A model generated the notes under the pieces. That model had not been told where the DNA came from. It saw nothing but the letters and a program-made list of their open reading frames with translations, and did not search any database. The translations under genes and the position numbers were made by a program. This document shows, in pieces, positions 27,888 to 44,781 of a DNA stretch of 64,000 nt; position 1 is the stretch's first letter; each line of letters begins with the position of its first letter. This DNA comes from Escherichia coli (GTDB lineage: Bacteria; Pseudomonadota; Gammaproteobacteria; Enterobacterales; Enterobacteriaceae): assembly GCF_001677475.2 (NCBI RefSeq), contig NZ_CP015229.1; one strand, written 5' to 3'.

Positions 27888-28077
27888 ACTGCAGGCGCTG
27901 CGTCAGGCGCGCCTTGATTTATTAACCGGTAAACGGGTGGTGTCTGTCCAGAAAGATGGTCGCAGAATTGAATATACGGCGGCTTCTCTGGATGAGCTTA
28001 ACCGGGCGATCAATGATGCGGAGTCGGTACTGGGGACAACCCGACGTCGCCGTCGTCCGCTGGGAGTGAGGTTATGA
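27871..28077 (+). CDS. W: Head-tail joining protein W
   Basis: 68-aa lambda W-like (TGKRVVSVQKDGRRIEYTA). Confidence 0.85.
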   Translation: MVTVAELQALRQARLDLLTGKRVVSVQKDGRRIEYTAASLDELNRAINDAESVLGTTRRRRRPLGVRL

Positions 28078-29666: not shown

Positions 29667-31161
29667 TCTTTCACACATTATTGCCGCAGCATTCAATGAA
29701 CCGCTGCTTCTGGAGCCCGCCTATGCGCGGGTTTTCTTTTGCGCGCTCGGGCGCGAGATGGGGGCAGCAAGTCTTTCGGTACCACAACAACAGGTACAGC
29801 TTGATGCTCCCGGAATGCTGGCTGAAACGGACGAGTATATGGCCGGAGGTAAACGACCGGCCCGTGTTTACCGGGTGGTGAACGGTATTGCTGTACTGCC
29901 GGTGACCGGCACGCTGGTGCACCGGCTGGGTGGTATGCGGCCATTTTCCGGAATGACAGGCTATGACGGCATTGTCGCCTGTCTTCAGCAGGCAATGGCG
30001 GATAGCCAGGTGCGGGGCGTACTGCTGGACATTGACAGTCCGGGCGGGCAGGCCGCCGGCGCGTTTGACTGCGCTGACATGATTTACCGCCTCCGTCAGC
30101 AGAAGCCGGTCTGGGCACTGTGCAATGACACGGCCTGTTCTGCAGCCATGCTGCTGGCGTCGGCCTGCTCCCGACGGCTGGTTACCCAGACATCCCGTAT
30201 CGGCTCCATTGGCGTGATGATGAGCCATGTCAGCTATGCCGGTCATCTGGCGCAGGCCGGTGTGGATATCACGCTGATTTACTCAGGGGCGCACAAGGTG
30301 GATGGCAATCAGTTTGAAGCGTTGCCGGCAGAGGTTCGCCAGGACATGCAGCAGCGGATTGATGCGGCGCGCCGGATGTTTGCCGAAAAAGTGGCGATGT
30401 ATACCGGTCTGTCTGTTGATGCCATCACGGGAACAGAGGCTGCCGTTTTTGAAGGTCAGTCCGGCATTGAGGCCGGGCTGGCGGATGAATTAATCAATGC
30501 GTCGGATGCCATCAGTGTGATGGCCACGGCGCTGAACAGTAATGTCAGAGGAGGCACTATGCCGCAATTAACTGCAACGGAAGCCGCCGCGCAGGAGAAC
30601 CAGCGAGTGATGGGGAGCCTGACATGCCAGGAAGCGAAAGGACGTGAACAGCTTGCCACGATGCTGGCAGGACAACAGGGCATGAGCGTTGAACAGGCCC
30701 GGGCGATTCTGGCCGCGGCGGCACCGCAGCAGCCGGTGGCATCCACGCAGAGTGAAGCCGATCGCATTATGGCGTGTGAAGAAGCGAACGGTCGTGAACA
30801 ACTGGCGGCAACGCTGGCGGCGATGCCGGAGATGACGGTGGAAAAAGCCCGCCCGATCCTGGCTGCTTCACCGCAGGCGGATGCCGGACCATCACTCCGT
30901 GATCAGATCATGGCACTGGATGAGGCAAAAGGGGCTGAGGCGCAGGCTGAACAGCTGGCTGCCTGCCCGGGAATGACAGTGGAGAGCGCCCGGGCTGTGC
31001 TGGCTGCGGGATCAGGTAAGGCAGAACCGGTCTCTGCATCCACAACCGCCATGTTTGAACATTTCATGGCGAACCATTCACCGGCAGCGGTACAGGGTGG
31101 CGTGGCACAGACGTCAGCAGACGGTGATGCGGACGTGAAAATGCTCATGGCCATGCCATGA
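29656..31161 (+). CDS. C: Head maturation protease C (S49 family) with nested scaffold Nu3-like C-terminal region
   Basis: 501-aa ORF; C-terminal three tandem ~35-aa repeats. Confidence 0.85.
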   Translation: MRRNLSHIIAAAFNEPLLLEPAYARVFFCALGREMGAASLSVPQQQVQLDAPGMLAETDEYMAGGKRPARVYRVVNGIAVLPVTGTLVHRLGGMRPFSGMTGYDGIVACLQQAMADSQVRGVLLDIDSPGGQAAGAFDCADMIYRLRQQKPVWALCNDTACSAAMLLASACSRRLVTQTSRIGSIGVMMSHVSYAGHLAQAGVDITLIYSGAHKVDGNQFEALPAEVRQDMQQRIDAARRMFAEKVAMYTGLSVDAITGTEAAVFEGQSGIEAGLADELINASDAISVMATALNSNVRGGTMPQLTATEAAAQENQRVMGSLTCQEAKGREQLATMLAGQQGMSVEQARAILAAAAPQQPVASTQSEADRIMACEEANGREQLAATLAAMPEMTVEKARPILAASPQADAGPSLRDQIMALDEAKGAEAQAEQLAACPGMTVESARAVLAAGSGKAEPVSASTTAMFEHFMANHSPAAVQGGVAQTSADGDADVKMLMAMP

Positions 31162-31197
31162 AGTCAGTGCTGACCATCAATAGGAGGTTTTTACAAT

Positions 31198-31545
31198 ATG
31201 GTGACGAAAACCATCACTGAACAGCGTGCGGAAGTACGTATTTTTGCCGGTAATGATCCGGCTCATACCGCCACAGGCAGCAGCGGGATTTCTCAGGCAA
31301 CACCGGCACTGACGCCCCTGATGCTGGATGAGTCTACCGGGAAACTGGTGGTCTGGGACGGACAGAAAGCCGGTAGTGCGGCTGGCATACTGGTACTGCC
31401 GCTTGAAGGCACAGAGACGGTGCTGACGTATTACAAGTCGGGAACCTTTGCGACGGAGGCAATCCACTGGCCTGAAAGTGTGGATGAACACAAAAAGGCC
31501 AACGCCTTTGCCGGCAGTGCCCTGAGTCACGCGGCGCTGCCGTAA
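31198..31545 (+). CDS. D: Head decoration protein D
   Basis: Lambda gpD-like (NDPAHTATG...PLMLD...KSGTFA). Confidence 0.88.
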   Translation: MVTKTITEQRAEVRIFAGNDPAHTATGSSGISQATPALTPLMLDESTGKLVVWDGQKAGSAAGILVLPLEGTETVLTYYKSGTFATEAIHWPESVDEHKKANAFAGSALSHAALP

Positions 31546-31602
31546 CACGTTATCAGGCCACCGCGGTGGCCTGACTGATTTCTGAATGAAAGGAACTGAT
31601 TT

Positions 31603-32631
31603 ATGGGATTGTTTACGACCCGCCAGTTGCTCGGTTATACCGAACAAAAAGTGAAATATCGTGCGCTGTTTCTGGAGCTGTTTTTCCGCCGTACGGTGAA
31701 TTTCCATACCGAAGAGGTGATGCTGGACAAAATTACCGGAAAAACGCCGGTGGCGGCCTATGTCTCCCCGGTTGTTGAAGGAAAAGTGCTGCGTCATCGT
31801 GGTGGTGAAACCCGCGTGTTGCGTCCGGGCTACGTCAAGCCGAAACACGAATTTAATTACCAGCAGGCGGTTGAGCGCCTTCCTGGTGAAGATCCATCTC
31901 AACTGAACGATCCGGCTTACCGCCGTCTGCGTATCATTACCGATAACCTCAAACAGGAAGAGCACGCGATTGTCCAGGTGGAAGAAATGCAGGCGGTAAA
32001 TGCTGTGTTGTATGGCAAATACACCATGGAAGGAGACCAGTTCGAGAAAATTGAGGTCGATTTTGGCAGGTCGACGAAGAATAACATCACACAGGGTAGC
32101 GGTAAGGAATGGTCAAAACAGGATCGTGACACGTTCGATCCTACACATGATATTGATCTTTACTGCGACCAGGCCAGCGGTCTTGTGAATATTGCCATCA
32201 TGGACGGTACCGTTTGGCGTCTGCTGAATGGTTTTAAGCTGTTTCGCGAAAAACTGGATACCCGTCGCGGTTCAAATTCACAACTCGAAACGGCAGTGAA
32301 AGATCTGGGCGCAGTGGTGTCCTTCAAGGGGTATTACGGCGATCTGGCTATTGTTGTGGCGAAAACGTCTTATATAGCAGAAGACGGTATCGAAAAACGT
32401 TATCTTCCAGATGGCATGCTGGTCCTGGGGAATACTGCTGCAGATGGGATCCGTTGTTACGGAGCCATTCAGGATGCGCAGGCGTTGTCCGAAGGTGTGG
32501 TGGCTTCTTCCCGTTATCCGAAACACTGGCTGACGGTGGGGGATCCTGCCCGTGAATTTACCATGACGCAGTCCGCACCGCTGATGGTGTTGCCGGACCC
32601 GGATGAGTTTGTGGTGGTACAGGTGAAATAA
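31603..32631 (+). CDS. E: Major capsid protein E
   Basis: 342-aa lambda gpE-like (PGYVKPKHE, DPAREFTM, LPDPDEFV). Confidence 0.92.
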   Translation: MGLFTTRQLLGYTEQKVKYRALFLELFFRRTVNFHTEEVMLDKITGKTPVAAYVSPVVEGKVLRHRGGETRVLRPGYVKPKHEFNYQQAVERLPGEDPSQLNDPAYRRLRIITDNLKQEEHAIVQVEEMQAVNAVLYGKYTMEGDQFEKIEVDFGRSTKNNITQGSGKEWSKQDRDTFDPTHDIDLYCDQASGLVNIAIMDGTVWRLLNGFKLFREKLDTRRGSNSQLETAVKDLGAVVSFKGYYGDLAIVVAKTSYIAEDGIEKRYLPDGMLVLGNTAADGIRCYGAIQDAQALSEGVVASSRYPKHWLTVGDPAREFTMTQSAPLMVLPDPDEFVVVQVK

Positions 32632-32640
32632 TCCGTGAGC

Positions 32641-32668
32641 GGGGGCGAAATGCCCCCGTGTCTTTTTT
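32641..32668 (+). terminator. Terminator-like hairpin between E and FI (possible attenuator)
   Basis: GGGGGC-GAAAT-GCCCCC followed by GTGTCTTTTTTC. Confidence 0.35.
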
Positions 32669-32682
32669 CACAGGGGGCTGAT

Positions 32683-33057
32683 ATGGCAACGAAAGAGCAA
32701 AATCTGAAACGGCTTGATGAACTGGCCCTGATTCTGGGGCGTGAGCCGGATATATCCGGGAGTGCCGCAGAGATAGCGCAGCGGGTGGCGGAATGGGAAG
32801 AGGAAATGCAGTCATCCGGCGATGATGTACAGGTTATGAATATGGATATCCGGGAGCAGGAAACCGCGGCTCATGATGTTCGTGAGGAAACATCCGGCGC
32901 GTTAACGCGCATCAGAGTTCTGACCTGCCTCCATCTCTGTGGCATTGATGGTGAAACGGGGGAATCCGTTGAGCTTGCGGATGTTGGTCGGGTGATTCTG
33001 ATTATGTCCTCAGATGCAAAAACACACGTTGATGGCGGAATGGCTGTTTATGCGTGA
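32683..33057 (+). CDS. FI: DNA packaging protein FI
   Basis: Start at MATKEQN with SD GGGGG; position between E and FII. Confidence 0.7.
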   Translation: MATKEQNLKRLDELALILGREPDISGSAAEIAQRVAEWEEEMQSSGDDVQVMNMDIREQETAAHDVREETSGALTRIRVLTCLHLCGIDGETGESVELADVGRVILIMSSDAKTHVDGGMAVYA

Positions 33058-33403
33058 TTTTCAGAATGCCTTTGATGCCGCCCTTGCCGGGGTGGACAGT
33101 ACGATTGTTGAAGTGATGGGCATCAGTGCGCAGTTCACCTCCGGTGCACAGCGTGGCGGCGAGGTTCATGGCGTTTTTGACGATCCGGAGTCGCTGGGTT
33201 TTGCCAGTAGTGGGATCCGTATTGAAGGAAGCAACCCGTCATTATTTGTGCTTACGGATACGGTTTGTGCTGTACGGCGTGGTGACACGCTGACCATTAA
33301 CGGCGAGATATTCTGGGTGGATCGTGTTTCTCCGGATGACGGAGGGAGTTGTTATCTCTGGCTCAACCGGGGGCAACCACCTGCCGTTAACCGTCGCCGC
33401 TGA
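33050..33403 (+). CDS. FII: Head-tail connector FII
   Basis: 117 aa from MRDFQNAF; C-terminus VDRVSPDDGGSC.LWL.RG.PPAVNRRR as in lambda FII. Confidence 0.85.
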   Translation: MRDFQNAFDAALAGVDSTIVEVMGISAQFTSGAQRGGEVHGVFDDPESLGFASSGIRIEGSNPSLFVLTDTVCAVRRGDTLTINGEIFWVDRVSPDDGGSCYLWLNRGQPPAVNRRR

Positions 33404-33414
33404 AAGGGGGATGT

Positions 33415-33993
33415 ATGGCCATAAAAGGTCTTGAGCAGGCCGTTGAAAACCTCAGCCGTATCAGCAAAACGGCGGTGCCTGGTGCCGCCGCAATGGCCAT
33501 TAACCGCGTTGCTTCATCCGCGATATCGCAGTCGGCGTCACAGGTTGCCCGTGAGACAAAGGTACGCCGGAAACTGGTAAAGGAAAGGGCCAGGCTGAAA
33601 AGGGCCACGGTCAAAAATCCGCAGGCCAGAATCAAGGTTAACCGGGGGGATTTGCCCGTAATCAAGCTGGGTAACGCGCGGATTGTCCTGCCCCGACGCA
33701 GGCGTCGTAAAAAGGGGCAGCGTTCAGCCCTGAAAGGTGGCGGCAGCGTGCTTGTGGTGGGAAACCGTCGTATTCCCGGCGCGTTTATTCAGCAACTGAA
33801 AAATGGCCGCTGGCATGTTATGCAGCGTGTGGCCGGGAAAAACCGTTACCCCATTGATGTAGTGAAAATCCCGATGGCGGTGCCGCTGACCACGGCGTTT
33901 AAACAAAATATTGAGCGGATACGGCGTGAACGTCTTCCGAAAGAGCTGGGCTATGCGCTGCAGCATCAACTGAGGATGGTAATAAAGCGATGA
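33415..33993 (+). CDS. Z: Tail completion protein Z
   Basis: 192-aa lambda gpZ-like. Confidence 0.85.
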   Translation: MAIKGLEQAVENLSRISKTAVPGAAAMAINRVASSAISQSASQVARETKVRRKLVKERARLKRATVKNPQARIKVNRGDLPVIKLGNARIVLPRRRRRKKGQRSALKGGGSVLVVGNRRIPGAFIQQLKNGRWHVMQRVAGKNRYPIDVVKIPMAVPLTTAFKQNIERIRRERLPKELGYALQHQLRMVIKR

Positions 33994-34385
33994 AACATAC
34001 TGAACTCCGTGCAGCCGTACTGGATGCACTGGAGAAGCATGACACCGGGGCGACGTTTTTTGATGGTCGCCCCGCTGTTTTTGATGAGGCGGATTTTCCG
34101 GCAGTTGCCGTTTATCTCACCGGCGCTGAATACACGGGCGAAGAGCTGGACAGCGATACCTGGCAGGCGGAGCTGCATATCGAAGTTTTCCTGCCTGCTC
34201 AGGTGCCGGATTCAGAGCTGGATGCGTGGATGGAGTCCCGGATTTATCCGGTGATGAGTGATATCCCGGCACTGTCAGATTTGATCACCAGTATGGTGGC
34301 CAGCGGCTATGACTACCGGCGCGACGATGATGTGGGCCTGTGGAGTTCAGCCGATCTGACTTATGTCATTACCTATGAAATGTGA
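33990..34385 (+). CDS. U: Tail terminator protein U
   Basis: 131 aa; matches recalled lambda gpU almost residue for residue. Confidence 0.95.
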
Positions 34386-34392
34386 GGACGCT

Positions 34393-35133
34393 ATGCCTGT
34401 ACCAAATCCTACAATGCCGGTGAAAGGTGCCGGGACCACCCTGTGGGTTTATAAGGGGAGCGGTGACCCTTATGCGAATCCGCTTTCAGACGTTGACTGG
34501 TCGCGTCTGGCAAAAGTTAAAGACCTGACGCCCGGCGAACTGACCGCTGAGTCCTATGACGACAGCTATCTCGATGATGAAGATGCAGACTGGACTGCGA
34601 CCGGGCAGGGGCAGAAATCCGCCGGAGATACCAGCTTCACGCTGGCGTGGATGCCCGGAGAGCAGGGGCAGCAGGCGCTGCTGGCGTGGTTTAATGAAGG
34701 TGATACCCGTGCCTATAAAATCCGCTTCCCGAACGGCACGGTCGATGTGTTCCGTGGCTGGGTGAGCAGTATCGGTAAGGCGGTGACGGCGAAGGAAGTG
34801 ATCCCCCGTACGGTGAAGGTCACCAATGTGGGCCGTCCGTCAATGGCAGAAGATCGCAGTACGGTAACAGCGGCAACCGGTATGACTGTGACGCCTGCCA
34901 GCTCCTCGGTGGTGAAAGGGCAGAGCACCACGCTGACCGTGGCATTCCAGCCGGAGGGCGCAACTGACAAGAGCTTCCGTGCGGTGTCAGCGGATAAAAC
35001 AAAAGCCACCGTGTCGGTCAGTGGTATGACCATCACCGTGAAAGGCGTTGCTGCAGGCAAGGTCAACATTCCGGTTGTATCCGGTAATGGTGAACTTGCT
35101 GCGGTTGCAGAAATCACTGTCACCGACAGTTAA
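34393..35133 (+). CDS. V: Major tail protein V
   Basis: [31 protein letters not shown]...; near-identical to recalled lambda gpV including the C-terminal Ig-like domain. Confidence 0.95.
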
Positions 35134-35148
35134 TCCGGAGAGTCAGCG

Positions 35149-35571
35149 ATGTTCCTGAAAACCGAATCATTTGAACATAACGGCGTGACCGTCACGCTTT
35201 CTGAACTGTCAGCCCTGCAGCGTATTGAGCATCTCGCCCTGATGAAACGGCAGGCAGAACAGGCGGAGTCAGACAGCAACCGGCAGGTTACTGTGGAAGA
35301 CGTCATCAGAACCGGTGCTTGTGTGGTGGCGATGTCCCTGTGGCATAACCATCCGAAGAAGACGCAGATGCCGTCCATGAATGAAGCCGTTAAACAGATT
35401 GAGCAGGAAGTGCTTACCACCTGGCCCACAGAGGCAATTTCTCATGCTGAAAACGTGGTGTACCGGCTGTCCGGAATGTATGAGTTTGTGGTGAATGATG
35501 CCCCTGACCAGGCAGAGGACGCCGGGCCTGCAGAGCCTGTTTCTGCGGGAAAGTGTTCGACGGTGAGCTGA
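35149..35571 (+). CDS. G: Tail assembly chaperone G
   Basis: 140-aa lambda gpG-like; ends just past the slippery site. Confidence 0.9.
   Translation: MFLKTESFEHNGVTVTLSELSALQRIEHLALMKRQAEQAESDSNRQVTVEDVIRTGACVVAMSLWHNHPKKTQMPSMNEAVKQIEQEVLTTWPTEAISHAENVVYRLSGMYEFVVNDAPDQAEDAGPAEPVSAGKCSTVS
35547..35553 (+). other. Programmed -1 ribosomal frameshift slippery heptamer GGGAAAG (G to G-T fusion)
   Basis: G GGA AAG in the G frame, followed by the T ORF in the -1 frame. Confidence 0.85.
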
Positions 35572-35987
35572 GTTTTGCCCTGAAACTGGCGCGCGAGATG
35601 GGGCGACCCGACTGGCGTGCCATGCTTGCCGGGATGTCATCCACGGAGTATGCCGACTGGCACCGCTTTTACAGTACCCATTATTTTCATGATGTTCTGC
35701 TGGATATGCACTTTTCCGGGCTGACGTACACCGTACTCAGCCTGTTTTTCAGCGATCCGGATATGCATCCGCTGGATTTCAGTCTGCTGAACCGGCGCGA
35801 GGCTGACGAAGAGCCTGAAGATGATGTGCTGATGCAGAAAGCGGCAGGGCTTGCCGGAGGTGTCCGCTTTGGCCCGGACGGGAATGAAGTTATCCCTACT
35901 TCCCCGGATGTGGCGGACATGACGGAGGATGACGTAATGCTGATGACAGTATCAGAAGGGATCGCAGGAGGAGTCCGGTATGGCTGA
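35553..35987 (+). CDS. T: Tail assembly protein T (expressed as G-T frameshift fusion)
   Basis: -1 frame ORF downstream of the slippery site; lambda gpT-like. Confidence 0.85.
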   Translation: MFDGELSFALKLAREMGRPDWRAMLAGMSSTEYADWHRFYSTHYFHDVLLDMHFSGLTYTVLSLFFSDPDMHPLDFSLLNRREADEEPEDDVLMQKAAGLAGGVRFGPDGNEVIPTSPDVADMTEDDVMLMTVSEGIAGGVRYG

Positions 35988-38541
35988 ACCGGTAGGCGAT
36001 CTGGTCGTTGATTTGAGTCTGGATGCGGCCAGATTTGACGAGCAGATGGCCAGAGTCAGGCGTCATTTTTCCGGTACGGAAAGTGATGCGAAAAAAACAG
36101 CGGCAGTCGTTGAACAGTCGCTGAGCCGACAGGTGCTGGCTGCACAGAAAGCGGGGATTTCCGTCGGGCAGTATAAAGCCGCCATGCGTATGCTGCCTGC
36201 ACAGTTCACCGACGTGGCCACGCAGCTTGCAGGCGGGCAAAGTCCGTGGCTGATCCTGCTGCAACAGGGGGGGCAGGTGAAGGACTCCTTCGGCGGGATG
36301 ATCCCCATGTTCAGGGGGCTTGCCGGTGCGATCACTCTGCCGATGGTCGGGGCCACCTCGCTGGCGGTGGCGACCGGTGCGCTGGCGTATGCCTGGTATC
36401 AGGGCAACTCAACCCTGTCCGATTTCAACAAAACGCTGGTCCTTTCCGGCAATCAGGCGGGACTGACGGCAGATCGTATGCTGGTCCTGTCCAGAGCCGG
36501 GCAGGCGGCAGGGCTGACGTTTAACCAGACCAGCGAGTCACTCAGCGCACTGGTTAAGGCGGGGGTAAGCGGTGAGGCTCAGATTGCGTCCATCAGCCAG
36601 AGTGTGGCGCGTTTCTCCTCTGCATCCGGCGTGGAGGTGGACAAGGTCGCTGAAGCCTTCGGGAAGCTGACCACAGACCCGACGTCGGGGCTGACGGCGA
36701 TGGCACGCCAGTTCCATAACGTGACGGCGGAGCAGATTGCGTATGTTGCTCAGTTGCAGCGTTCCGGCGATGAAGCCGGGGCATTGCAGGCGGCGAACGA
36801 GGCCGCAACGAAAGGGTTTGATGACCAGACCCGCCGCCTGAAAGAGAACATGGGCACGCTGGAGACCTGGGCAGACAGGACTGCGCGGGCATTCAAATCC
36901 ATGTGGGATGCGGTGCTGGATATTGGTCGTCCTGATACCGCGCAGGAGATGCTGATTAAGGCAGAGGCTGCGTTTAAGAAAGCAGACGACATCTGGAATC
37001 TGCGCAAGGATGATTATTTTGTTAACGATGAAGCGCGGGCGCGTTACTGGGATGATCGTGAAAAGGCCCGTCTTGCGCTTGAAGCCGCCCGAAAGAAGGC
37101 TGAGCAGCAGACTCAACAGGACAAAAATGCGCAGCAGCAGAGCGATACCGAAGCGTCACGGCTGAAATATACCGAAGAGGCGCAGAAGGCTTACGAACGG
37201 CTGCAGACGCCGCTGGAGAAATATACCGCCCGTCAGGAAGAACTGAACAAGGCACTGAAAGACGGGAAAATCCTGCAGGCGGATTACAACACGCTGATGG
37301 CGGCGGCGAAAAAGGATTATGAAGCGACGCTGAAAAAGCCGAAACAGTCCGGCGTGAAGGTGTCTGCGGGCGATCGTCAGGAAGACAGTGCTCATGCTGC
37401 CCTGCTGACGCTTCAGGCAGAACTCCGGACGCTGGAGAAGCATGCCGGAGCGAATGAGAAAATCAGCCAGCAGCGCCGGGATTTGTGGAAGGCAGAAAGT
37501 CAGTTCGCGGTACTGGAGGAGGCGGCACAACGTCGCCAGCTGTCCGCACAGGAGAAATCCCTGCTGGCGCATAAAGATGAGACGCTGGAGTACAAACGCC
37601 AGCTGGCTGCACTTGGCGACAAGGTTACGTATCAGGAGCGCCTGAACGCGCTGGCGCAGCAGGCGGATAAATTCGCACAGCAGCAACGGGCAAAACGGGC
37701 CGCCATTGATGCGAAAAGCCGGGGGCTGACTGACCGGCAGGCAGAACGGGAAGCCACGGAACAGCGCCTGAAGGAACAGTATGGCGATAATCCGCTGGCG
37801 CTGAATAACGTCATGTCAGAGCAGAAAAAGACCTGGGCGGCTGAAGACCAGCTTCGCGGGAGCTGGATGGCAGGCCTGAAGTCCGGCTGGAGTGAGTGGG
37901 AAGAGAGCGCCACGGACAGTATGTCGCAGGTAAAAAGTGCAGCCACGCAGACCTTTGATGGTATTGCACAGAATATGGCGGCGATGCTGACCGGCAGTGA
38001 GCAGAACTGGCGCAGCTTCACCCGTTCCGTGCTGTCCATGATGACAGAAATTCTGCTTAAGCAGGCAATGGTGGGGATTGTCGGGAGTATCGGCAGCGCC
38101 ATTGGCGGGGCTGTTGGTGGCGGCGCATCCGCGTCAGGCGGTACAGCCATTCAGGCCGCTGCGGCGAAATTCCATTTTGCAACCGGAGGATTTACGGGAA
38201 CCGGCGGCAAATATGAGCCAGCGGGGATTGTTCACCGTGGTGAGTTTGTCTTCACGAAGGAGGCAACCAGCCGGATTGGCGTGGGGAATCTTTACCGGCT
38301 GATGCGCGGCTATGCCACCGGCGGTTATGTCGGTACACCGGGCAGCATGGCAGACAGCCGGTCGCAGGCGTCCGGGACGTTTGAGCAGAATAACCATGTG
38401 GTGATTAACAACGACGGCACGAACGGGCAGATAGGTCCGGCTGCTCTGAAGACGGTGTATGACATGGCCCGCAAGGGTGCCCGTGATGAAATTCAGACAC
38501 AGATGCGTGATGGTGGCCTGTTCTCCGGAGGTGGACGATGA
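35980..38541 (+). CDS. H: Tape measure protein H
   Basis: 853-aa ORF, near-identical to recalled lambda gpH. Confidence 0.95.
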   Translation: MAEPVGDLVVDLSLDAARFDEQMARVRRHFSGTESDAKKTAAVVEQSLSRQVLAAQKAGISVGQYKAAMRMLPAQFTDVATQLAGGQSPWLILLQQGGQVKDSFGGMIPMFRGLAGAITLPMVGATSLAVATGALAYAWYQGNSTLSDFNKTLVLSGNQAGLTADRMLVLSRAGQAAGLTFNQTSESLSALVKAGVSGEAQIASISQSVARFSSASGVEVDKVAEAFGKLTTDPTSGLTAMARQFHNVTAEQIAYVAQLQRSGDEAGALQAANEAATKGFDDQTRRLKENMGTLETWADRTARAFKSMWDAVLDIGRPDTAQEMLIKAEAAFKKADDIWNLRKDDYFVNDEARARYWDDREKARLALEAARKKAEQQTQQDKNAQQQSDTEASRLKYTEEAQKAYERLQTPLEKYTARQEELNKALKDGKILQADYNTLMAAAKKDYEATLKKPKQSGVKVSAGDRQEDSAHAALLTLQAELRTLEKHAGANEKISQQRRDLWKAESQFAVLEEAAQRRQLSAQEKSLLAHKDETLEYKRQLAALGDKVTYQERLNALAQQADKFAQQQRAKRAAIDAKSRGLTDRQAEREATEQRLKEQYGDNPLALNNVMSEQKKTWAAEDQLRGSWMAGLKSGWSEWEESATDSMSQVKSAATQTFDGIAQNMAAMLTGSEQNWRSFTRSVLSMMTEILLKQAMVGIVGSIGSAIGGAVGGGASASGGTAIQAAAAKFHFATGGFTGTGGKYEPAGIVHRGEFVFTKEATSRIGVGNLYRLMRGYATGGYVGTPGSMADSRSQASGTFEQNNHVVINNDGTNGQIGPAALKTVYDMARKGARDEIQTQMRDGGLFSGGGR

Positions 38542-38867
38542 AGACCTTCCGCTGGAAAGTGAAACCCGGTATGGATGTGGCTTCGGTCCCTTCTGTAAGA
38601 AAGGTGCGCTTTGGTGATGGCTATTCCCAGCGAGCGCCTGCCGGGCTGAATGCCAACCTGAAAACGTACAGCGTGACGCTTTCTGTCCCCCGTGAGGAGG
38701 CCACGGTACTGGAGTCGTTTCTGGAAGAGCACGGGGGCTGGAAATCCTTTCTGTGGACGCCGCCTTATGAGTGGCGGCAGATAAAGGTGACCTGCGCAAA
38801 ATGGTCGTCGCGGGTCAGTATGCTGCGTGTTGAGTTCAGCGCAGAGTTTGAACAGGTGGTGAACTGA
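38538..38867 (+). CDS. M: Minor tail protein M
   Basis: 109-aa lambda gpM-like. Confidence 0.92.
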   Translation: MKTFRWKVKPGMDVASVPSVRKVRFGDGYSQRAPAGLNANLKTYSVTLSVPREEATVLESFLEEHGGWKSFLWTPPYEWRQIKVTCAKWSSRVSMLRVEFSAEFEQVVN

Positions 38868-39565
38868 TGCAGGATATCCGGCAGGAAACACTGAATGAAT
38901 GCACCCGTGCGGAGCAGTCGGCCAGCGTGGTGCTCTGGGAAATCGACCTGACAGAGGTCGGTGGAGAACGTTATTTTTTCTGTAATGAGCAGAACGAAAA
39001 AGGTGAGCCGGTCACCTGGCAGGGGCGACAGTATCAGCCGTATCCCATTCAGGGGAGCGGTTTTGAACTGAATGGCAAAGGCACCAGTACGCGCCCCACG
39101 CTGACGGTTTCTAACCTGTACGGTATGGTCACCGGGATGGCGGAAGATCTGCAGAGTCTGGTCGGCGGAACGGTGGTCCGGCGTAAGGTTTACGCCCGTT
39201 TTCTGGATGCGGTGAACTTCGTCAACGGAAACAGTGACGCCGATCCGGAGCAGGAGGTGATCAGCCGCTGGCGCATCGAGCAGTGCAGCGAACTGAGCGC
39301 GGTGAGTGCCTCCTTTGTACTGTCCACGCCGACGGAAACGGATGGCGCTGTTTTTCCGGGACGTATCATGCTGGCCAACACCTGCACCTGGACCTATCGC
39401 GGTGACGAGTGCGGTTATAGCGGTCCGGCTGTCGCGGATGAATATGACCAGCCAACGTCCGATATCACGAAGGATAAATGCAGCAAATGCCTGAGCGGTT
39501 GTAAGTTCCGCAATAACGTCGGCAACTTTGGCGGCTTCCTTTCCATTAACAAACTTTCGCAGTAA
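38867..39565 (+). CDS. L: Minor tail protein L
   Basis: 232-aa lambda gpL-like with C-terminal Cys cluster. Confidence 0.92.
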   Translation: MQDIRQETLNECTRAEQSASVVLWEIDLTEVGGERYFFCNEQNEKGEPVTWQGRQYQPYPIQGSGFELNGKGTSTRPTLTVSNLYGMVTGMAEDLQSLVGGTVVRRKVYARFLDAVNFVNGNSDADPEQEVISRWRIEQCSELSAVSASFVLSTPTETDGAVFPGRIMLANTCTWTYRGDECGYSGPAVADEYDQPTSDITKDKCSKCLSGCKFRNNVGNFGGFLSINKLSQ

Positions 39566-39570
39566 ATCCC

Positions 39571-40314
39571 ATGACACAGACAGAATCAGCGATTCTGGCG
39601 CACGCCCGGCGATGTGCGCCAGCGGAGTCGTGCGGCTTCGTGGTGAGAACGCCGGAGGGGGAAAGATATTTTCCCTGCGTGAATATTTCCGGTGAGCCGG
39701 AGGCGTATTTCCGTATGTCGCCGGAAGACTGGCTGCAGGCAGAAATGCAGGGTGAGATTGTGGCGCTGGTCCACAGCCACCCCGGTGGTCTGCCCTGGCT
39801 GAGTGAGGCCGACCGGCGGCTGCAGGTGCAGAGTGATTTGCCGTGGTGGCTGGTCTGCCGGGGGACGATTCATAAGTTCCGCTGTGTGCCGCATCTCACC
39901 GGGCGGCGCTTTGAGCACGGTGTGACGGACTGTTACACACTGTTCCGGGATGCTTATCATCTGGCGGGGATTGAGATGCCGGATTTTCATCGCGAGGATG
40001 ACTGGTGGCGTAACGGCCAGAATCTCTATCTGGATAATCTGGAGGCGACGGGGCTGTATCAGGTGCCGTTGTCAGCGGCACAGCCGGGCGATGTGCTGCT
40101 GTGCTGTTTTGGTTCATCGGTGCCGAATCACGCCGCAATTTACTGCGGCGACGGCGAGCTGCTGCACCATATTCCTGAACAACTGAGCAAACGAGAGAGG
40201 TACACCGACAAATGGCAGCGACGCACACACTCCCTCTGGCGTCACCGGGCATGGCGCGCATCTGCCTTTACGGGGATTTACAACGATTTGGTCGCCGCAT
40301 CGACCTTCGTGTGA
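39571..40314 (+). CDS. K: Tail assembly protein K (MPN/JAB plus NlpC/P60-like)
   Basis: 247-aa lambda gpK-like (HSHP motif). Confidence 0.9.
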   Translation: MTQTESAILAHARRCAPAESCGFVVRTPEGERYFPCVNISGEPEAYFRMSPEDWLQAEMQGEIVALVHSHPGGLPWLSEADRRLQVQSDLPWWLVCRGTIHKFRCVPHLTGRRFEHGVTDCYTLFRDAYHLAGIEMPDFHREDDWWRNGQNLYLDNLEATGLYQVPLSAAQPGDVLLCCFGSSVPNHAAIYCGDGELLHHIPEQLSKRERYTDKWQRRTHSLWRHRAWRASAFTGIYNDLVAASTFV

Positions 40315-40883
40315 AAACGGGGGCTGAAGCCATCCGGGCACTGGCCACACAGCTCCCGGCGTTTCGTCAGAAACTGAGCGACGGCTGGTATCAGGTACGG
40401 ATTGCCGGGCGGGACGTCAGCACGTCCGGGTTAACGGCGCAGTTACATGAGACTCTGCCTGATGGCGCTGTGATTCATATTGTTCCCAGAGTCGCCGGGG
40501 CCAAGTCAGGTGGCGTATTCCAGATTGTCCTGGGGGCTGCCGCCATTGCCGGATCATTCTTTACCGCCGGAGCCACCCTTGCAGCATGGGGGGCAGCCAT
40601 TGGGGCCGGTGGTATGACCGGCATCCTGTTTTCTCTCGGTGCCAGTATGGTGCTCGGTGGTGTGGCGCAGATGCTGGCACCGAAAGCCAGAACTCCCCGT
40701 ACACAGACAACGGATAACGGTAAGCAGAACACCTATTTCTCCTCACTGGATAACATGGTTGCCCAGGGCAATGTTCTGCCTGTTCTGTACGGGGAAATGC
40801 GCGTGGGGTCACGCGTGGTTTCTCAGGAGATCAGCACGGCAGACGAAGGGGACGGTGGTCAGGTTGTGGTGATTGGTCGCTGA
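40212..40883 (+). CDS. I: Tail assembly protein I
   Basis: 223-aa ORF matching recalled lambda gpI; overlaps K 3' end. Confidence 0.9.
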   Translation: MAATHTLPLASPGMARICLYGDLQRFGRRIDLRVKTGAEAIRALATQLPAFRQKLSDGWYQVRIAGRDVSTSGLTAQLHETLPDGAVIHIVPRVAGAKSGGVFQIVLGAAAIAGSFFTAGATLAAWGAAIGAGGMTGILFSLGASMVLGGVAQMLAPKARTPRTQTTDNGKQNTYFSSLDNMVAQGNVLPVLYGEMRVGSRVVSQEISTADEGDGGQVVVIGR

Positions 40884-40943
40884 TGCAAAATGTTTTATGT
40901 GAAACCGCCTGCGGGCGGTTTTGTCATTTATGGAGCGTGAGGA

Positions 40944-42370
40944 ATGGGTAAAGGAAGCAGTAAGGGGCATACCCCGCGCGAAGCGAAGGACAACCTGAAG
41001 TCCACGCAGTTGCTGAGTGTGATCGATGCCATCAGCGAAGGGCCGGTTGAAGGTCCGGTGGATGGATTAAAAAGCGTGCTGCTGAACAGTACGCCGGTGC
41101 TGGACACTGAGGGGAATACCAACATCTCCGGTATCACGGTGGTGTTCCGTGCCGGTGAGCAGGAGCAGACACCGCCGGAGGGGTTTGAATCCTCCGGCTC
41201 CGAGACGGTGCTGGGTACGGAAGTGAAATATGACACGCCGATCACCCGCACCATTACGTCTGCAAACATCGACCGTCTGCGCTTTACCTTCGGTGTACAG
41301 GCACTGGTGGAAACCACCTCAAAGGGTGACAGGAATCCGTCGGAAGTCCGTCTGCTGGTTCAGATACAACGTAACGGTGGCTGGGTGACGGAAAAAGACA
41401 TCACCATTAAGGGCAAAACCACCTCGCAGTATCTGGCCTCGGTGGTGGTGGATAACCTGCCGCCGCGCCCGTTTAATATCCGGATGCGCAGGATGACGCC
41501 GGACAGCACCACAGACCAGCTGCAGAACAAAACGCTCTGGTCGTCATACACCGAAATTATCGATGTGAAACAGGGCTACCCGAACACGGCACTGGTCGGC
41601 GTGCAGGTGGACTCGGAGCAGTTCGGCAGCCAGCAGGTGAGCCGTAATTATCATCTGCGCGGGCGTATTCTGCAGGTGCCGTCGAATTATAACCCGCAGA
41701 CGCGGCAATACAGCGGTATCTGGGACGGAACGTTTAAACCGGCATACAGCAACAACATGGCCTGGTGTCTGTGGGATATGCTGACCCATCCGCGCTACGG
41801 CATGGGGAAACGTCTTGGTGCGGCGGATGTGGACAAATGGGCGCTGTATGTCATCGGCCAGTACTGCGACCAGTCAGTACCGGACGGCTTTGGCGGCACG
41901 GAGCCGCGCATCACCTGTAATGCATACCTGACCACACAGCGCAAGGCGTGGGATGTGCTCAGTGATTTCTGCTCGGCGATGCGCTGTATGCCGGTATGGA
42001 ACGGGCAGACGCTGACGTTCGTGCAGGACCGACCATCAGATAAGGTGTGGACCTATAACCGCAGTAATGTGGTGATGCCGGATGATGGCGCGCCGTTCCG
42101 CTACAGCTTCAGCGCCCTGAAGGACCGCCATAATGCCGTTGAGGTGAACTGGATTGACCCGAACAACGGCTGGGAGACGGCGACAGAGCTTGTTGAAGAT
42201 ACGCAGGCCATTGCCCGTTACGGTCGTAATGTCACGAAGATGGATGCCTTTGGCTGTACCAGCCGGGGGCAGGCACACCGCGCCGGGCTGTGGCTGATTA
42301 AAACGGAACTGCTGGAGACGCAGACCGTGGATTTCAGCGTGGGTGCTGAAGGGCTTCGCCATGTACCGGG
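40944..42370 (+). pseudogene. J: Tail tip/host-specificity protein J, 5' fragment (~476 codons) truncated by IS insertion
   Basis: Lambda J-like N-terminus ending ...GLRHVPG at the IS junction; track ORF runs a few codons into the IS to a stop. Confidence 0.9.
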
Positions 42371-42463
42371 TATGAGACGACAATAACTCAGTCCGCCTGG
42401 CGCCGATTATTCTGGCCGGTTTTGTAACCTGAGTGTCATTTACATGATCCAACAGGAAATGGC

Positions 42464-43963
42464 GTGACGCTCAATACTTCTCAGGTCAGTTACTATATGA
42501 CTCAGCGTAAGAAAGGTATAACTCAGCATATCTCGGCCATGAAGGCTGGTATCTCAGTCCGTTCTGGTCGTCGGATCGAAAAAGGAGAGTGGGCAAAAAA
42601 CAGTGTTCGGCACTGGCGCACACGCAAAGATCCTCTGGAAGCTGTGTGGGACAGCATGCTTGTTCCTCTGTTGAAAGAGAGGCCGGCTCTGACACCAACA
42701 ACTCTACTGGAGATGCTACAGGATAAATATCCCGGCCAGTACCCCAACAGCCTTCGAAGAACAATGCAACGGCGGGTTCGCGAATGGAAACTACAGTATG
42801 GTACAGAGCAGGAGGTCATGTTCCGCCAGCAACATCAGCCCGGCCTGCGAGGCCTGTCGGACTTTACTGAACTGAAAGGTGTAGTTGTCACCATCGCCGG
42901 TAAGTTGTTGGCGCATAAGTTGTATCACTTCCGTCTGGAATGGAGCCACTGGAGCTGGATGCGGGTTGTTCTGGGTGGTGAGAGCTTCTCTGCTCTGGCT
43001 GAAGGCCTGCAGGAAGCCCTCGGACAACTGGGCGGAGTGCCGGTAGAACATAAAACGGACAGCCTGAGGGCAGCATGGAAACAACAGGGCGAAGATGGAC
43101 GCCGCGAGCTGACTGAGCGTTATGCTACTCTCTGTCAGCACTACGGAATGCAGGGCGTACACAATAATGCCGGTCGGGGCCACGAAAATGGCTCGGTTGA
43201 AAGTGCCCACGGACATCTGAAAAGGCGTATCTGTCAGGCGCTGATACTGCGGGGCAGTAACGACTTCAGCACCATAGAAGAATATCAGGCCTTCATCACT
43301 CAGCAGGTTATGCGGCACAACCGTAACAATCAGGATCTGGTCAAGGAAGAACGTCTTCATCTGAAACCGCTGCCGCTTCGTCGCAGTGCTGACTATGATG
43401 AGCTGACTGTGAGGGTTAGTCGCAGCAGTACCATCAATGTGAAGCACGTCGTCTACAGCGTACCTTCCCGGCTTGTAGGTCAACTGTTACGGGTCAGGTT
43501 ATGGGACGATCGTCTGAGCTGTTACGTTGGCAGCAGCGAGGTCATGAGCTGCCCTCGCGTCAGACCAGAAAAAGGGAAGACGCGGGCCCGTCGTATCGAC
43601 TTCCGACATGTGATCGACAGTCTGGCAAAAAAGCCCGGTGCGTTCTGCCATGCAACGCTGAGAAATGACATCCTGCCGGACGATGAATGGCGGAGGCTGT
43701 GGCGTCGCTTATGTAATCATCTGGAGCCCGATATGGCAGGAAGGCTGATGGTACATGCCCTGAAACTGGCTGCAGGATACGACGATATCTCAGTCGTGGC
43801 AAAAGGTATGGAGCAGATGCTGAATACCCCGGGAAACGTGGATCTGCACCGGCTGATGCGCTTCCTGGGTATAAAAGAAAAGGCGTTGCCGGTAGTCAAT
43901 GTGATACAGCATAACCTGAGCAGTTATGAGCAACTACTGCGTGGCAAGGGAGGTTCGCAGTGA
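42464..43963 (+). CDS. istA: IS21-family transposase IstA
   Basis: 499-aa ORF with N-terminal HTH and DDE-type core; followed by overlapping IstB. Confidence 0.8.
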   Translation: MTLNTSQVSYYMTQRKKGITQHISAMKAGISVRSGRRIEKGEWAKNSVRHWRTRKDPLEAVWDSMLVPLLKERPALTPTTLLEMLQDKYPGQYPNSLRRTMQRRVREWKLQYGTEQEVMFRQQHQPGLRGLSDFTELKGVVVTIAGKLLAHKLYHFRLEWSHWSWMRVVLGGESFSALAEGLQEALGQLGGVPVEHKTDSLRAAWKQQGEDGRRELTERYATLCQHYGMQGVHNNAGRGHENGSVESAHGHLKRRICQALILRGSNDFSTIEEYQAFITQQVMRHNRNNQDLVKEERLHLKPLPLRRSADYDELTVRVSRSSTINVKHVVYSVPSRLVGQLLRVRLWDDRLSCYVGSSEVMSCPRVRPEKGKTRARRIDFRHVIDSLAKKPGAFCHATLRNDILPDDEWRRLWRRLCNHLEPDMAGRLMVHALKLAAGYDDISVVAKGMEQMLNTPGNVDLHRLMRFLGIKEKALPVVNVIQHNLSSYEQLLRGKGGSQ

Positions 43964-44715
43964 GCAATATCCATCACCTTGAACATAGCCTGCGTAAACT
44001 ACGCCTGACACGAGTTGGAGCTGAATGGCACGCTCTGGAAAAACGAGCGCTGGCAGAAGGCTGGACACCATCGCGCTATCTTCTGACGCTATGCAATGAA
44101 GAACTCCTGTGGCGCGAGAGTGAAAAACTGCGTCGTTATAAAAAGGAGGCCCGGTTGCCAGTTGCCAAAACGCTGAGCGAATACGACTTCAGTCAGGTGC
44201 CGGAACTGAATGGAGCTCAGTTCCGGCAACTCTGTGAAACGACAGACTGGGTTGATGCAGGAGAAAACGTTCTGCTGTTCGGAGCCAGCGGGTTGGGGAA
44301 AAGCCATCTGGCGGCAGCGATCGTGGATGGCGTAGTAGGTCAGGGCTACCGGGCCCGGTTCTACAGCGCAGGAGAGCTGTTGCAGGAACTACGTAAAGCC
44401 AGAGCTCAGTTGAAACTGAATGAGCTGCTACTGAAACTGGATCGCTACCGGGTGATAGTGGTGGATGATCTTGGCTATGTCAAACGCGATAGTGCCGAAA
44501 CGGGTGTGCTGTTCGAGTTAATAGCGCATCGCTATGAACGTGGGAGCCTGGTGATAACCAGTAACCATCCGTTCAGCATGTGGGGCAGCATCTTCGTGGA
44601 TGAGACTATGGCGGTGGCTGCGGCAGACAGGCTGATCCATCACGGATATATGTTCGAACTGAAAGGGGAAAGCTACAGGAAAAAGACAGCGAAGGCAGTA
44701 ACAAGCGCGACTTGA
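43960..44715 (+). CDS. istB: IS21-family ATP-binding helper IstB
   Basis: Walker A (LLFGASGLGKSHLA), Walker B (VVDDLGYV) and C-terminal DRLIHHG motif. Confidence 0.88.
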   Translation: MSNIHHLEHSLRKLRLTRVGAEWHALEKRALAEGWTPSRYLLTLCNEELLWRESEKLRRYKKEARLPVAKTLSEYDFSQVPELNGAQFRQLCETTDWVDAGENVLLFGASGLGKSHLAAAIVDGVVGQGYRARFYSAGELLQELRKARAQLKLNELLLKLDRYRVIVVDDLGYVKRDSAETGVLFELIAHRYERGSLVITSNHPFSMWGSIFVDETMAVAAADRLIHHGYMFELKGESYRKKTAKAVTSAT

Positions 44716-44781
44716 TGTCGCCCTGAAGGGTGCGGCCAGTATAGTTGGCGCGAGTCGGCAAAACTAGTTGACGTCTAATAA

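What the first reader, a model, noticed from the sequence alone, without database searches (positions are those of the whole stretch)
33990..40883. Tail module U-I near-identical to lambda inside an otherwise divergent prophage
U, V, H, M, L and I match lambda residue for residue over long stretches from memory, while the head genes are clearly homologous but diverged and the early and lysis regions resemble KplE1/Rac/Qin. This marks a recent recombinational exchange boundary somewhere between E and U.
Basis: established knowledge. Interest (0 to 1): 0.3.

Follow-up and report, generated by a model that had tools for sequence, protein, structure and literature searches.

The report
Lambda-type tail genes, phage-21-type head
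The prophage carries tail genes almost identical to phage lambda's joined to head genes of the phage 21 type; this is the long-known lambda/21 mosaic joint found in about a tenth of E. coli genomes, so it is ordinary.

Summary
Window 33990-40883 (genes U to I) is 98.9% identical in nucleotides to lambda 8552-15444, while the head genes are only about 58% identical.

The near-identical block is larger than reported. It starts 23 nt before the FII stop codon (about 33380) and runs through Z and most of J to 46329. At 42371-44780 a 2,410-bp ISEc10 element splits J.

The "divergent" head genes are phage 21 head genes (98.9% nt identity). Phage 21 itself has the same head/tail joint against lambda, and about 610 of 5,426 complete E. 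coli genomes carry it. The FII/Z boundary is therefore an old, shared module joint, not a recent private exchange.

Recent exchange does exist, on a finer scale inside the tail module:
- A 567-bp patch in V-G is 21-like (p = 4e-16).
- The sister prophage in strain M114 differs from the window at 28 sites, confined to 869 nt of U-V.
- Another sister, JCKP02, differs in patches across L to J.

The U-I block occurs in 68% of complete E. coli genomes, with a median of three copies per genome that has a match, so templates for gene conversion are plentiful.

This is classic lambdoid mosaicism, already known and of low interest.

The parts
26500..33380 (+). Phage-21-type head module. It runs from about codon 180 of terminase A through W, B, C/Nu3, D, E, FI and FII. 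This is the 'divergent' side of the joint.
   Evidence: 98.85% nt identity to phage 21 and 57.6% to lambda over 26437-33221. Proteins are 93-99.6% identical to 21 and 24-66% to lambda. Third-codon identity to lambda is 41-44%.
33050..33403 (+). FII, the head-tail joining gene, of 21 type. It contains the homeologous shoulder (33222-33380) and the joint (33380-33386).
   Evidence: Pfam Phage_attach. Protein identity is 97.4% to 21 and 65.8% to lambda. The shoulder is 71% identical to lambda against a 57.6% background.
33415..33993 (+). Z, the tail completion gene. It belongs to the shared tail module but is roughly equidistant from lambda and 21.
   Evidence: Pfam Minor_tail_Z, E = 5e-82. Protein identity to lambda is 189/192. 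Over 33381-33989 the window is 97.9% identical to lambda and 97.2% to 21.
33990..34385 (+). U, the tail terminator gene.
   Evidence: 130/131 identical to lambda U. Pfam Phage_tail_U.
34393..35133 (+). V, the major tail tube gene, with a C-terminal Ig-like domain.
   Evidence: 240/246 identical to lambda V. Pfam Phage_TTP_12 plus Big_2.
34001..34869 (+). Recent conversion patch in U and the N-terminal part of V. It holds 28 of the 54 differences counted between the window and its sister prophage in M114 over window 25300-42370.
   Evidence: 28 differences in 869 nt, against 0 in the flanking 620 nt and 461 nt. The window equals lambda at 22 of the 28 sites.
34764..35330 (+). 21-like patch inside the otherwise lambda-like block, covering the V Ig domain and the 5' part of G.
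   Evidence: 98.2% identical to 21 against 94.7% to lambda. Informative sites are 23 (window = 21) against 3 (window = lambda), compared with 27 against 206 in the rest of the block; Fisher p = 4e-16.
35149..35987 (+). G (35149-35571) and the T reading frame (35553-35987), the tape-measure chaperones. The -1 frameshift heptamer GGGAAAG lies at 35547-35553.
   Evidence: G is 131/140 and T 143/144 identical to lambda. The slippery heptamer is at the position homologous to lambda 10109.
35980..38541 (+). H, the tape measure gene (853 aa).
   Evidence: 847/853 aa and 99.41% nt identical to lambda.
38538..40883 (+). Tail-tip assembly genes: M (38538-38867), L (38867-39565), K (39571-40314) and I (40212-40883).
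   Evidence: M 109/109, L 230/232, K 246/247 (against corrected lambda) and I 222/223. Nucleotide identity to lambda is 99.40%. Pfam: Prok-JAB plus NLPC_P60 for K, Lambda_tail_I for I.
40944..42370 (+). 5' part of J (central tail fibre), codons 1-475, ending at the IS insertion.
   Evidence: 98.0% nt identical to lambda. The reading frame runs into the IS and stops at 42386.
42371..44780 (+). ISEc10 (IS21 family) inserted in J. istA is at 42464-43963 and istB at 43960-44715. The 6-bp target duplication ACCGGG sits at 42365-42370 and 44781-44786.
   Evidence: 99.9% identical over 2,410 bp to annotated ISEc10 copies. Pfam IstB_IS21, E = 9e-62. None of 5,426 complete E. coli genomes has this J::IS junction.
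44787..46773 (+). 3' part of J. It is lambda-like up to 46329. The last ~150 codons (the receptor-binding end) are of a different type.
   Evidence: 95% nt identical to lambda 16926-18474. Once the IS and one copy of the duplication are removed, J is 3,414 nt (1,137 aa) with no internal stop. Residues 1001-1137 are about 35% identical to lambda J. The 3' end plus lom is 97.7% identical to phages Perceval, Ayreon, ev099 and PhiR49_1.

Best explanation
What it is. The region is a standard lambda-type non-contractile tail operon. It comprises Z, U, V, G/G-T (made by a -1 frameshift), H, M, L, K, I and J. It belongs to a ~51-kb lambdoid prophage integrated in the 5' end of prfC.

The main joint. 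The tail operon is fused to a phage-21-type head module at the 3' end of FII. That is the point where the independent head and tail assembly pathways meet. The joint is old and inherited: it is the same lambda/21 module boundary seen in phage 21 itself and in roughly one in nine complete E. coli genomes. It bears the signature of homeologous recombination, a ~160-nt shoulder of intermediate identity next to the high-identity block.

Why the tail is so close to lambda. The tail module is one widely shared allele pool, 95-99% identical across lambdoid phages and present in about 68% of complete E. coli genomes, typically in several copies. Homologous recombination and gene conversion between incoming or co-resident lambdoid elements keep overwriting it in patches of a few hundred to a few thousand nucleotides. 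In this prophage most patches (U, the N-terminal part of V, the end of G, T, H, M, L, K, I, and the 5' part of J) currently carry the allele that lambda also carries. The V-G patch carries the 21-like allele, and part of Z and the 3' end of J carry other alleles.

Functional state. The module cannot now yield infectious tails, because J is split by a strain-private ISEc10 insertion.

Shown versus inferred. Shown: the identities, the joint position, the patch structure, the prevalence and the IS. Inferred: the recombination pathway (Red or RecA), the direction of each conversion, and the loss of function.
For: - Sliding-window and segment identities against lambda and phage 21 place the joint and the patches.
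- Base-level alignment of the joint across six genomes shows the switch at 33380-33386.
- Third-codon identity to lambda is 41-44% in heads and 92-99.6% in tails, so the contrast reflects different ancestry rather than different selective constraint.
- The joint probe is covered at 80% or more in 610 of 5,426 genomes. The U-I block is in 3,671 of 5,426 genomes, with a median of 3 places per genome that has a match.
- The 21-like V-G patch is supported at Fisher p = 4e-16.
- Sister prophages at the same site have near-identical heads but tails that differ in patches.
- Phage D2 has an alternative joint at FI/FII.
- The shoulder fits the 'hit plus shoulder' signature of homeologous exchange described for lambdoid phages (PMC2327257).
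- Gene content, Pfam families and the frameshift heptamer match lambda.
- The IS and its target duplication are documented.
Against: - The direction and donors of the conversion patches are not determined. Only two sister prophages were compared base by base, and no formal recombination-detection program was run.
- The rest of this strain's genome is not available, so co-resident donor prophages cannot be shown.
- The 610-genome figure rests on megablast coverage of 80% or more, not on inspection of every joint.
- That 21-type FII works with a lambda-type tail is inferred from the viability of phage 21, not tested here.
Confidence: 0.88

Rival explanations
1. One reading: a single recent recombination imported a lambda tail module (U-I) into an otherwise unrelated prophage, creating a new boundary between E and U.
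For: - The tail block is closer to lambda (98.9%) than to phage 21 (96.6%); informative sites in 33381-42370 are 270 (window = lambda) against 71 (window = 21).
- Just right of the joint the window carries lambda's GCCGTTAACCG, where 21, ev017 and 4A7 have GCCGCCAGCCG.
- H to I is 99.4% identical to lambda.
Against: - The head/tail joint position is shared with phage 21, ev017, 4A7 and about 610 complete E. coli genomes.
- Z, directly next to the joint, is roughly equidistant from lambda and 21.
- The block contains a 21-like patch and other-allele patches.
- 49 E. coli records match the block at 99% or more, as well as or better than lambda does, so lambda is not a privileged donor.
Confidence: 0.08
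2. No recombination: heads and tails share one history, but tail genes evolve far more slowly under stronger constraint.
For: Tail proteins are highly conserved among lambdoid phages.
Against: - Synonymous and third-codon positions are saturated in heads (41-44% identity) but 92-99.6% identical in tails.
- Identity to lambda is 71% in the 159 nt before 33380 and 100% in the 255 nt after it.
- Phage D2 places the switch elsewhere, at FI/FII.
Confidence: 0.01
3. Artefact: laboratory lambda DNA (vector, sequencing control or size standard) was mis-assembled into the contig.
For: Lambda DNA is a common laboratory contaminant, and the match is long.
Against: - There are 77 differences from lambda in 6.9 kb, including a 21-like patch.
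- The same head-tail arrangement, contiguous with the same flanking genes, occurs in independent complete genomes from Australia, China and the UK.
- The block is colinear with an intact prophage bounded by repeats of the prfC 5' coding sequence.
Confidence: 0.01

Closest known systems
Phage lambda tail operon (NC_001416 7977-18903, genes Z to J)
   Same: - Same genes in the same order and of the same sizes.
- 98.9% nt identity over U-I and 98.2% over 33222-42370.
- Same G-T frameshift heptamer.
- Same H length, 853 aa.
   Different: - The V-G patch is 21-like.
- Part of Z (33636-33861) carries a third allele.
- The last ~150 codons of J are of another type (about 35% aa identity).
- J is split by ISEc10.
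- The heads, cosB/Nu1, early and lysis regions are not lambda's.
Phage 21 (OL657228; genus Jouyvirus) structural region
   Same: Colinear from terminase A to J at 97.1% nt over 16.3 kb. The heads are 98.85% identical. The head/tail joint against lambda is in the same place.
   Different: - cosB, Nu1 and the first ~180 codons of A differ (26% aa identity for Nu1).
- The tails are 96.6% identical, less than the match to lambda, with 21-specific divergence in the 3' end of H and in M.
- The attachment site is prfC instead of icd.
- The early and lysis regions are unrelated.
Sister prophages at the yjjG-prfC site in E. coli M114, JCKP02, 1604D011, strain 144 and others
   Same: M114 is 99.8% identical over 35.9 kb plus 13.5 kb, with the same integration site, backbone, heads and joint.
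   Different: None of them carries ISEc10 in J. Their tails differ from the window in discrete patches: U-V in M114, and V-G and L-J in JCKP02.
Phage D2 / 4A7 (genus Bievrevirus)
   Same: 21-type head genes joined to the lambda-type tail module.
   Different: D2 switches from 21-type to lambda-type at the FI/FII overlap, about 340 bp upstream of the window's joint. 4A7 shares the window's joint but carries the 21-like allele just after it.

Membership tests
Lambda-type siphovirus tail module (Z-U-V-G/T-H-M-L-K-I-J) | Gene order and gene sizes colinear with lambda | tested here: met
   All eleven reading frames from Z to J are in lambda order. Those from Z to I have the same lengths as in lambda; the rejoined J is 1,137 aa and diverges from lambda J over its last ~150 codons.
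Lambda-type siphovirus tail module (Z-U-V-G/T-H-M-L-K-I-J) | Protein families of the individual tail proteins | tested here: met
   Pfam Minor_tail_Z, Phage_tail_U, Phage_TTP_12 plus Big_2, Prok-JAB plus NLPC_P60, and Lambda_tail_I, all above the gathering score.
Lambda-type siphovirus tail module (Z-U-V-G/T-H-M-L-K-I-J) | Programmed -1 frameshift between G and T at the slippery heptamer GGGAAAG | tested here: met
   The heptamer at 35547-35553 is at the position homologous to lambda 10109, and the flanking sequence is conserved. Frameshifting itself was not tested.
Lambda-type siphovirus tail module (Z-U-V-G/T-H-M-L-K-I-J) | Intact central fibre gene J, needed for a functional tail tip | tested here: not met
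   J is interrupted after codon 475 by ISEc10. The frame is restored only by removing the IS and one copy of the duplication in silico.
Lambda-type siphovirus tail module (Z-U-V-G/T-H-M-L-K-I-J) | Assembly of tails that join to heads | not testable with these tools
   This needs prophage induction and electron microscopy or complementation.
Phage-21-type head/packaging module | Head genes W to FII nearly identical to phage 21 | tested here: met
   98.85% nt identity over 26437-33221. Proteins W, B, C, D, E, FI and FII are 95.7-99.6% identical.
Phage-21-type head/packaging module | 21-type packaging specificity (cosB plus the Nu1 DNA-binding domain) | tested here: not met
   - Nu1 is 26% identical to 21 gp1 and 31.5% to lambda Nu1.
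- cosB diverges from both after about +35.
- Window 25250-25690 has no near match in 50,697 phage records.
- cosN is identical to both.
IS21 family (ISEc10) | Two consecutive genes, istA (transposase) and istB (helper ATPase) | tested here: met
   ORFs of 499 aa and 251 aa. The element is 99.9% identical to copies annotated as ISEc10 istA/istB. Pfam IstB_IS21, E = 9e-62.
IS21 family (ISEc10) | Short target-site duplication flanking the element | tested here: met
   6-bp ACCGGG on both sides, present once in lambda at 16926-16931.
IS21 family (ISEc10) | Terminal inverted repeats | tested here: inconclusive
   The ends TATGAGACGACAA and TATTAGACGTCAA (reverse complement) match at 11 of 13 positions by eye. 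They were not compared with an ISfinder reference.
Lambdoid mosaic joint made by homeologous recombination ('hit plus shoulder', Martinsohn et al. 2008) | A block above 90% identity flanked by a ~200-bp shoulder of intermediate identity, above the background | tested here: met
   The 159-nt shoulder is 71% identical, between a 57.6% background and a block of 98% or more. The definition comes from PMC2327257. Only the left side was assessed.

The most novel reading that the evidence does not exclude
The near-identity to lambda may be maintained mainly by concerted evolution inside bacterial chromosomes. Under this reading, repeated gene conversion occurs between the several lambdoid tail modules co-resident in one E. 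coli genome, and exchange between infecting phages plays the smaller part. Prophages with a dead tail, like this J::ISEc10 one, would then act as reservoirs and recipients of tail alleles. The window/M114/JCKP02 trio would give naturally dated conversion tracts, for example 0.87 kb in U-V, from which tract length and rate could be measured.
Probability: 0.3. Interest if true: 0.3.

Novelty: already known. Interest (0 to 1): 0.12.

Why it matters
It matters little beyond annotation. The finding is a textbook case of lambdoid modular mosaicism, and it re-finds the lambda/21 head-tail module boundary. That boundary was, to my knowledge, known from early heteroduplex maps (not checked here) and is confirmed by the complete phage 21 sequence (PMC9119081).

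Practical value:
- The prophage can be annotated with confidence, with a 21-type capsid and a lambda-type tail.
- It should be flagged as tail-defective because of J::ISEc10.
- "Identical to lambda" should not be read as recent descent from lambda, since the same tail allele pool is in two thirds of complete E. coli genomes.

The comparison with sister prophages is a small but clean illustration that tail modules turn over by short conversion patches faster than the adjacent head module diverges.

Tried and rejected
- **Selective constraint alone.** Rejected by third-codon identities.
- **Lambda contamination or mis-assembly.** Rejected by the 77 differences, the internal 21-like patch and independent genomes with the same arrangement.
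- **The same J::IS junction in other genomes.** None found among 5,426, so the source genome is apparently not in the collection.
- **Structured RNAs in the tail module.** None found in Rfam at the gathering threshold.
- **An invertible tail-fibre segment next to the Pin-like recombinase.** No inverted repeats found.
- **Review papers.** I tried to read Feiss et al. 2022 (MMBR, PMC9799177) and Casjens & Hendrix 2015 (PMC4424060) for published statements on the lambda/21 joint and the K-gene correction. Neither is held. The literature search gave no open paper that describes the FII joint explicitly.
- **Whole-module alignment including phages D2 and 4A7.** This failed because loci L007, L008 and L010 never reached the scripting machine. 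Only the 1.1-kb junction region of those phages was aligned, with DNA alignment.
- **A wrong offset.** One script used a wrong offset and produced meaningless output. It was redone correctly.
Full report
**1. Check of the observation.**
Window 33990-40883 runs exactly from the start of U to the stop of I. Megablast against 50,697 phage records returns lambda and its laboratory derivatives at 98.9% identity over the whole 6,894 nt (lambda 8552-15444), and 82 records cover at least 80% of the query. A three-way alignment counts 77 differences from lambda in this block.

Protein identities to lambda are as follows.

| Protein | Identical residues |
|---|---|
| U | 130/131 |
| V | 240/246 |
| G | 131/140 |
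| T | 143/144 |
| H | 847/853 |
| M | 109/109 |
| L | 230/232 |
| K | 246/247 |
| I | 222/223 |

The -1 frameshift heptamer GGGAAAG between G and T is conserved at 35547. Pfam assigns the expected families: Minor_tail_Z, Phage_tail_U, Phage_TTP_12 plus Big_2, Prok-JAB plus NLPC_P60, and Lambda_tail_I. By contrast, the head proteins are 24-66% identical to lambda, and head DNA is 57.6% identical.

**2. True extent of the block.**
BLASTN of the whole window against lambda gives one alignment, 33222-42370 against lambda 7784-16931, at 98.2%. A second follows at 44781-46329 against lambda 16926-18474, at 95%.

On the left, identity to lambda is 57.6% across the heads. It rises to 71% in a 159-nt shoulder (33222-33380) and then becomes perfect from 33380 for 255 nt. 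The joint therefore lies 23 nt before the FII stop codon, so Z belongs to the shared block.

On the right, the block runs through 87% of J. The last ~150 codons of J are about 35% identical to lambda J. Together with lom they are 97.7% identical to phages Perceval, Ayreon, ev099 and PhiR49_1.

**3. The gap in J is an insertion sequence.**
Positions 42371-44780 (2,410 bp) are 99.9% identical to copies annotated as ISEc10, IS21 family, with istA and istB. IstB matches Pfam IstB_IS21. The hexamer ACCGGG, single in lambda at 16926-16931, flanks the element on both sides. Removing the IS and one copy of the repeat restores a 3,414-nt J with no stop codon. No complete E. coli genome among 5,426 has this junction, and the closest sister prophage lacks the IS. 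The insertion is therefore recent, private to this strain, and probably inactivates tail-tip formation. The loss of function is an inference.

**4. What the "divergent" heads are.**
The head region matches phage 21 and relatives (ev017, PhiR57_1, 4A7, 1W, 3W) at 97.7-98.0%. Against the complete phage 21 genome (OL657228; PMC9119081), the window is colinear from terminase A to the IS site: 26033-42370 against 21 783-17119, at 97.1%. Identity is 98.85% over 26437-33221.

Lambda against phage 21 shows the same pattern as lambda against the window. The heads are 66-69% identical, followed by one 10.2-kb alignment at 95.5% that starts at lambda 7837 / 21 8025.

A 1-kb probe centred on the joint is covered at 80% or more in 610 of 5,426 complete E. 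coli genomes. A further ~3,000 genomes match only from window 33275 rightwards. The one of these that was inspected has lambda-type heads.

**5. Ancestry, not selective constraint.**
Third-codon-position identity to lambda is 41-44% in A, B, E and FII. It is 92-99.6% in Z, U, V, H, L and I. Different selective constraint cannot produce that contrast or the step at 33380. The two sides have different coalescence times, which means recombination.

**6. Fine structure of the tail block.**
Three-way informative sites over 33381-42370 are 270 (window = lambda), 71 (window = 21) and 47 (lambda = 21). They are not evenly spread.

| Segment | Identity pattern |
|---|---|
| FII end plus Z (33381-33989) | Roughly equidistant: 97.9% window-lambda, 97.2% window-21, 97.4% lambda-21 |
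| 33636-33861 | 13 differences from lambda, 7 of them unique to the window |
| U and the N-terminal part of V | 99.2% lambda-like |
| 34764-35330 (V Ig domain and start of G) | 21-like: 98.2% against 94.7%; 23 to 3 informative sites; Fisher p = 4e-16 against the rest |
| H | 99.41% lambda-like |
| M, L, K, I | 99.40% lambda-like |
| J | Declines from 98% to 94% |

At the joint itself the window carries lambda's GCCGTTAACCG, where 21, ev017 and 4A7 have GCCGCCAGCCG. This places the switch from 21-like to lambda-like sequence within 33380-33386. Phage D2 switches at the FI/FII overlap instead.

**7. Evidence for truly recent exchange.**
Sister prophages occupy the same chromosomal site. M114 is 99.8% identical over the shared 49 kb. 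Its 54 differences in 25300-42370 include 28 confined to 34001-34869, with none in the flanking 620 nt and 461 nt. At 22 of those 28 sites the window equals lambda.

JCKP02 has heads that differ from the window by 0-4 sites per 300 nt, apart from the D-gene patch described in section 11. Its tail, however, differs by 25 sites in 34768-35367 and by up to 33 per 300 nt in L-K-I-J. Tail patches are therefore replaced faster than the neighbouring heads diverge.

Templates are abundant. The U-I block is present at 80% coverage or more in 3,671 of 5,426 genomes, with a median of three places per genome that has a match and up to 14. Forty-nine records match at 99% or more, as well as or better than lambda does.

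**8. Mechanism.**
The genes encode the lambda tail pathway. This rests on established knowledge of lambda, supported here by identity and Pfam matches. Z and U complete and terminate the tube, V forms the tube, G and G-T chaperone the tape measure H, and M, L, K, I and J build the tip.

The main joint sits where separately assembled heads and tails meet, so either side can be exchanged without breaking intra-module contacts. The viability of phage 21 shows that 21-type FII works with this tail type; that step is an inference.

The shoulder next to the high-identity block is the signature that Martinsohn, Radman and Petit described for homeologous, Red-promoted exchange among lambdoid phages (PMC2327257). 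Which pathway acted, and in which direction, is not shown here.

**9. Surroundings.**
The prophage lies between yjjG and prfC. It is bounded by a 42-nt imperfect repeat of the first prfC codons at 3156-3197 and 54327-54368. The early genes carry CPS-53/KplE1-type names (yfdN/P/Q/R) and the lysis genes Qin-type names (essQ, rrrQ, rzpQ) in the M114 annotation.

**10. Verdict.**
The recent events are small patches inside the tail module. Nothing here departs from known lambdoid mosaicism, so the novelty is "already known" and the interest is low.

**11. Side observations.**
Other things seen along the way:
- The lambda reference sequence lacks one base in K.
- The cosB/Nu1 pair is unusual.
- A macro-domain gene sits between stf and tfa.
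- The window carries a private patch in the D gene.

These and a few others are itemised under "noticed in passing".

Noticed in passing
window 42371-44780 (target duplication at 42365-42370 and 44781-44786): A complete ISEc10 (IS21 family, istA plus istB) is inserted in J after codon 475, with a 6-bp ACCGGG duplication. The junction is absent from all 5,426 complete E. coli genomes searched. It probably makes the prophage unable to build infectious tails.
   Followed up: yes
window 39705 (L001 lambda ~14266): The classic lambda reference (NC_001416/J02459) lacks one G that is present in the window and in phage 21. Newer lambda records match the query over 6,894 nt rather than 6,893, which suggests they carry it too. 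With the G, K is 247 aa with a complete JAB plus NlpC/P60 architecture, instead of the annotated 199 aa starting at 14276.
   Followed up: partly
window 25265-26500: cosN (GGGCGGCGACCT, 25253-25264) is identical to lambda and 21. cosB, Nu1 (25481-25987, 168 aa, Pfam Phage_Nu1) and the first ~180 codons of terminase A differ from both. Positions 25250-25690 have no near match in 50,697 phage records. This may be a further packaging specificity.
   Followed up: partly
window 50443-51345: A 300-aa macro-domain protein gene sits exactly between the side-tail-fibre gene and the tail-fibre assembly gene (PHROG 2613, function unknown). Homologues occupy the same place in Gifsy-1, Salmonella phages SEN4/SEN5 and Escherichia phage Chuche.
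   Followed up: partly
window 46330-46773: The last ~150 codons of J (the receptor-binding end) are about 35% identical to lambda J. Together with lom they are 97.7% identical in nucleotides to phages Perceval, Ayreon, ev099 and PhiR49_1. This marks the right-hand mosaic boundary of the lambda-like block and implies a receptor specificity other than lambda's.
   Followed up: partly
window 3156-3197 and 54327-54368: A 42-nt imperfect direct repeat (81%) covers the first codons of prfC and bounds the ~51-kb prophage. The phage integrates into the 5' end of prfC and supplies a replacement N-terminal coding segment. The integrase gene is at about 3437-4672.
   Followed up: partly
window 31293-31663: A cluster of 13 differences in the head-decoration gene D separates the window from M114. 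The same stretch also differs from JCKP02 and phage 21, which are otherwise nearly identical there. It is a small window-private conversion patch in the head module.
   Followed up: no
L007 (phage D2) 7500-7520, equivalent to window ~33040-33050: Phage D2 joins 21-type FI to lambda-type FII at the FI/FII overlap. This is a second natural head/tail joint, about 340 bp upstream of the one in the window.
   Followed up: partly
window 10984-11172: Rfam matches to the isrK Hfq-binding RNA and the C4 antisense RNA lie side by side, next to the Rha/antirepressor-like region of the early operon.
   Followed up: no
window 12256-12362: Four copies of the 17-nt repeat TGGTGCAGGAGATTCAC, spaced 21-45 nt apart, lie inside the helix-turn-helix replication-type gene. 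They are probably origin iterons.
   Followed up: no
window 19434-19873 and 22889-23304: Two cspA-type thermoregulator leaders (Rfam RF01766) precede cold-shock gene morons (cspB and cspI by the M114 annotation) in the lysis region. They also account for the 200-nt direct repeat at 19595 and 23046.
   Followed up: no
window 52027-52617 (- strand): A Pin/Gin-like recombinase gene lies next to the tail-fibre assembly gene, but no inverted repeats or invertible segment were found in 47400-52800. The invertase appears orphaned.
   Followed up: partly
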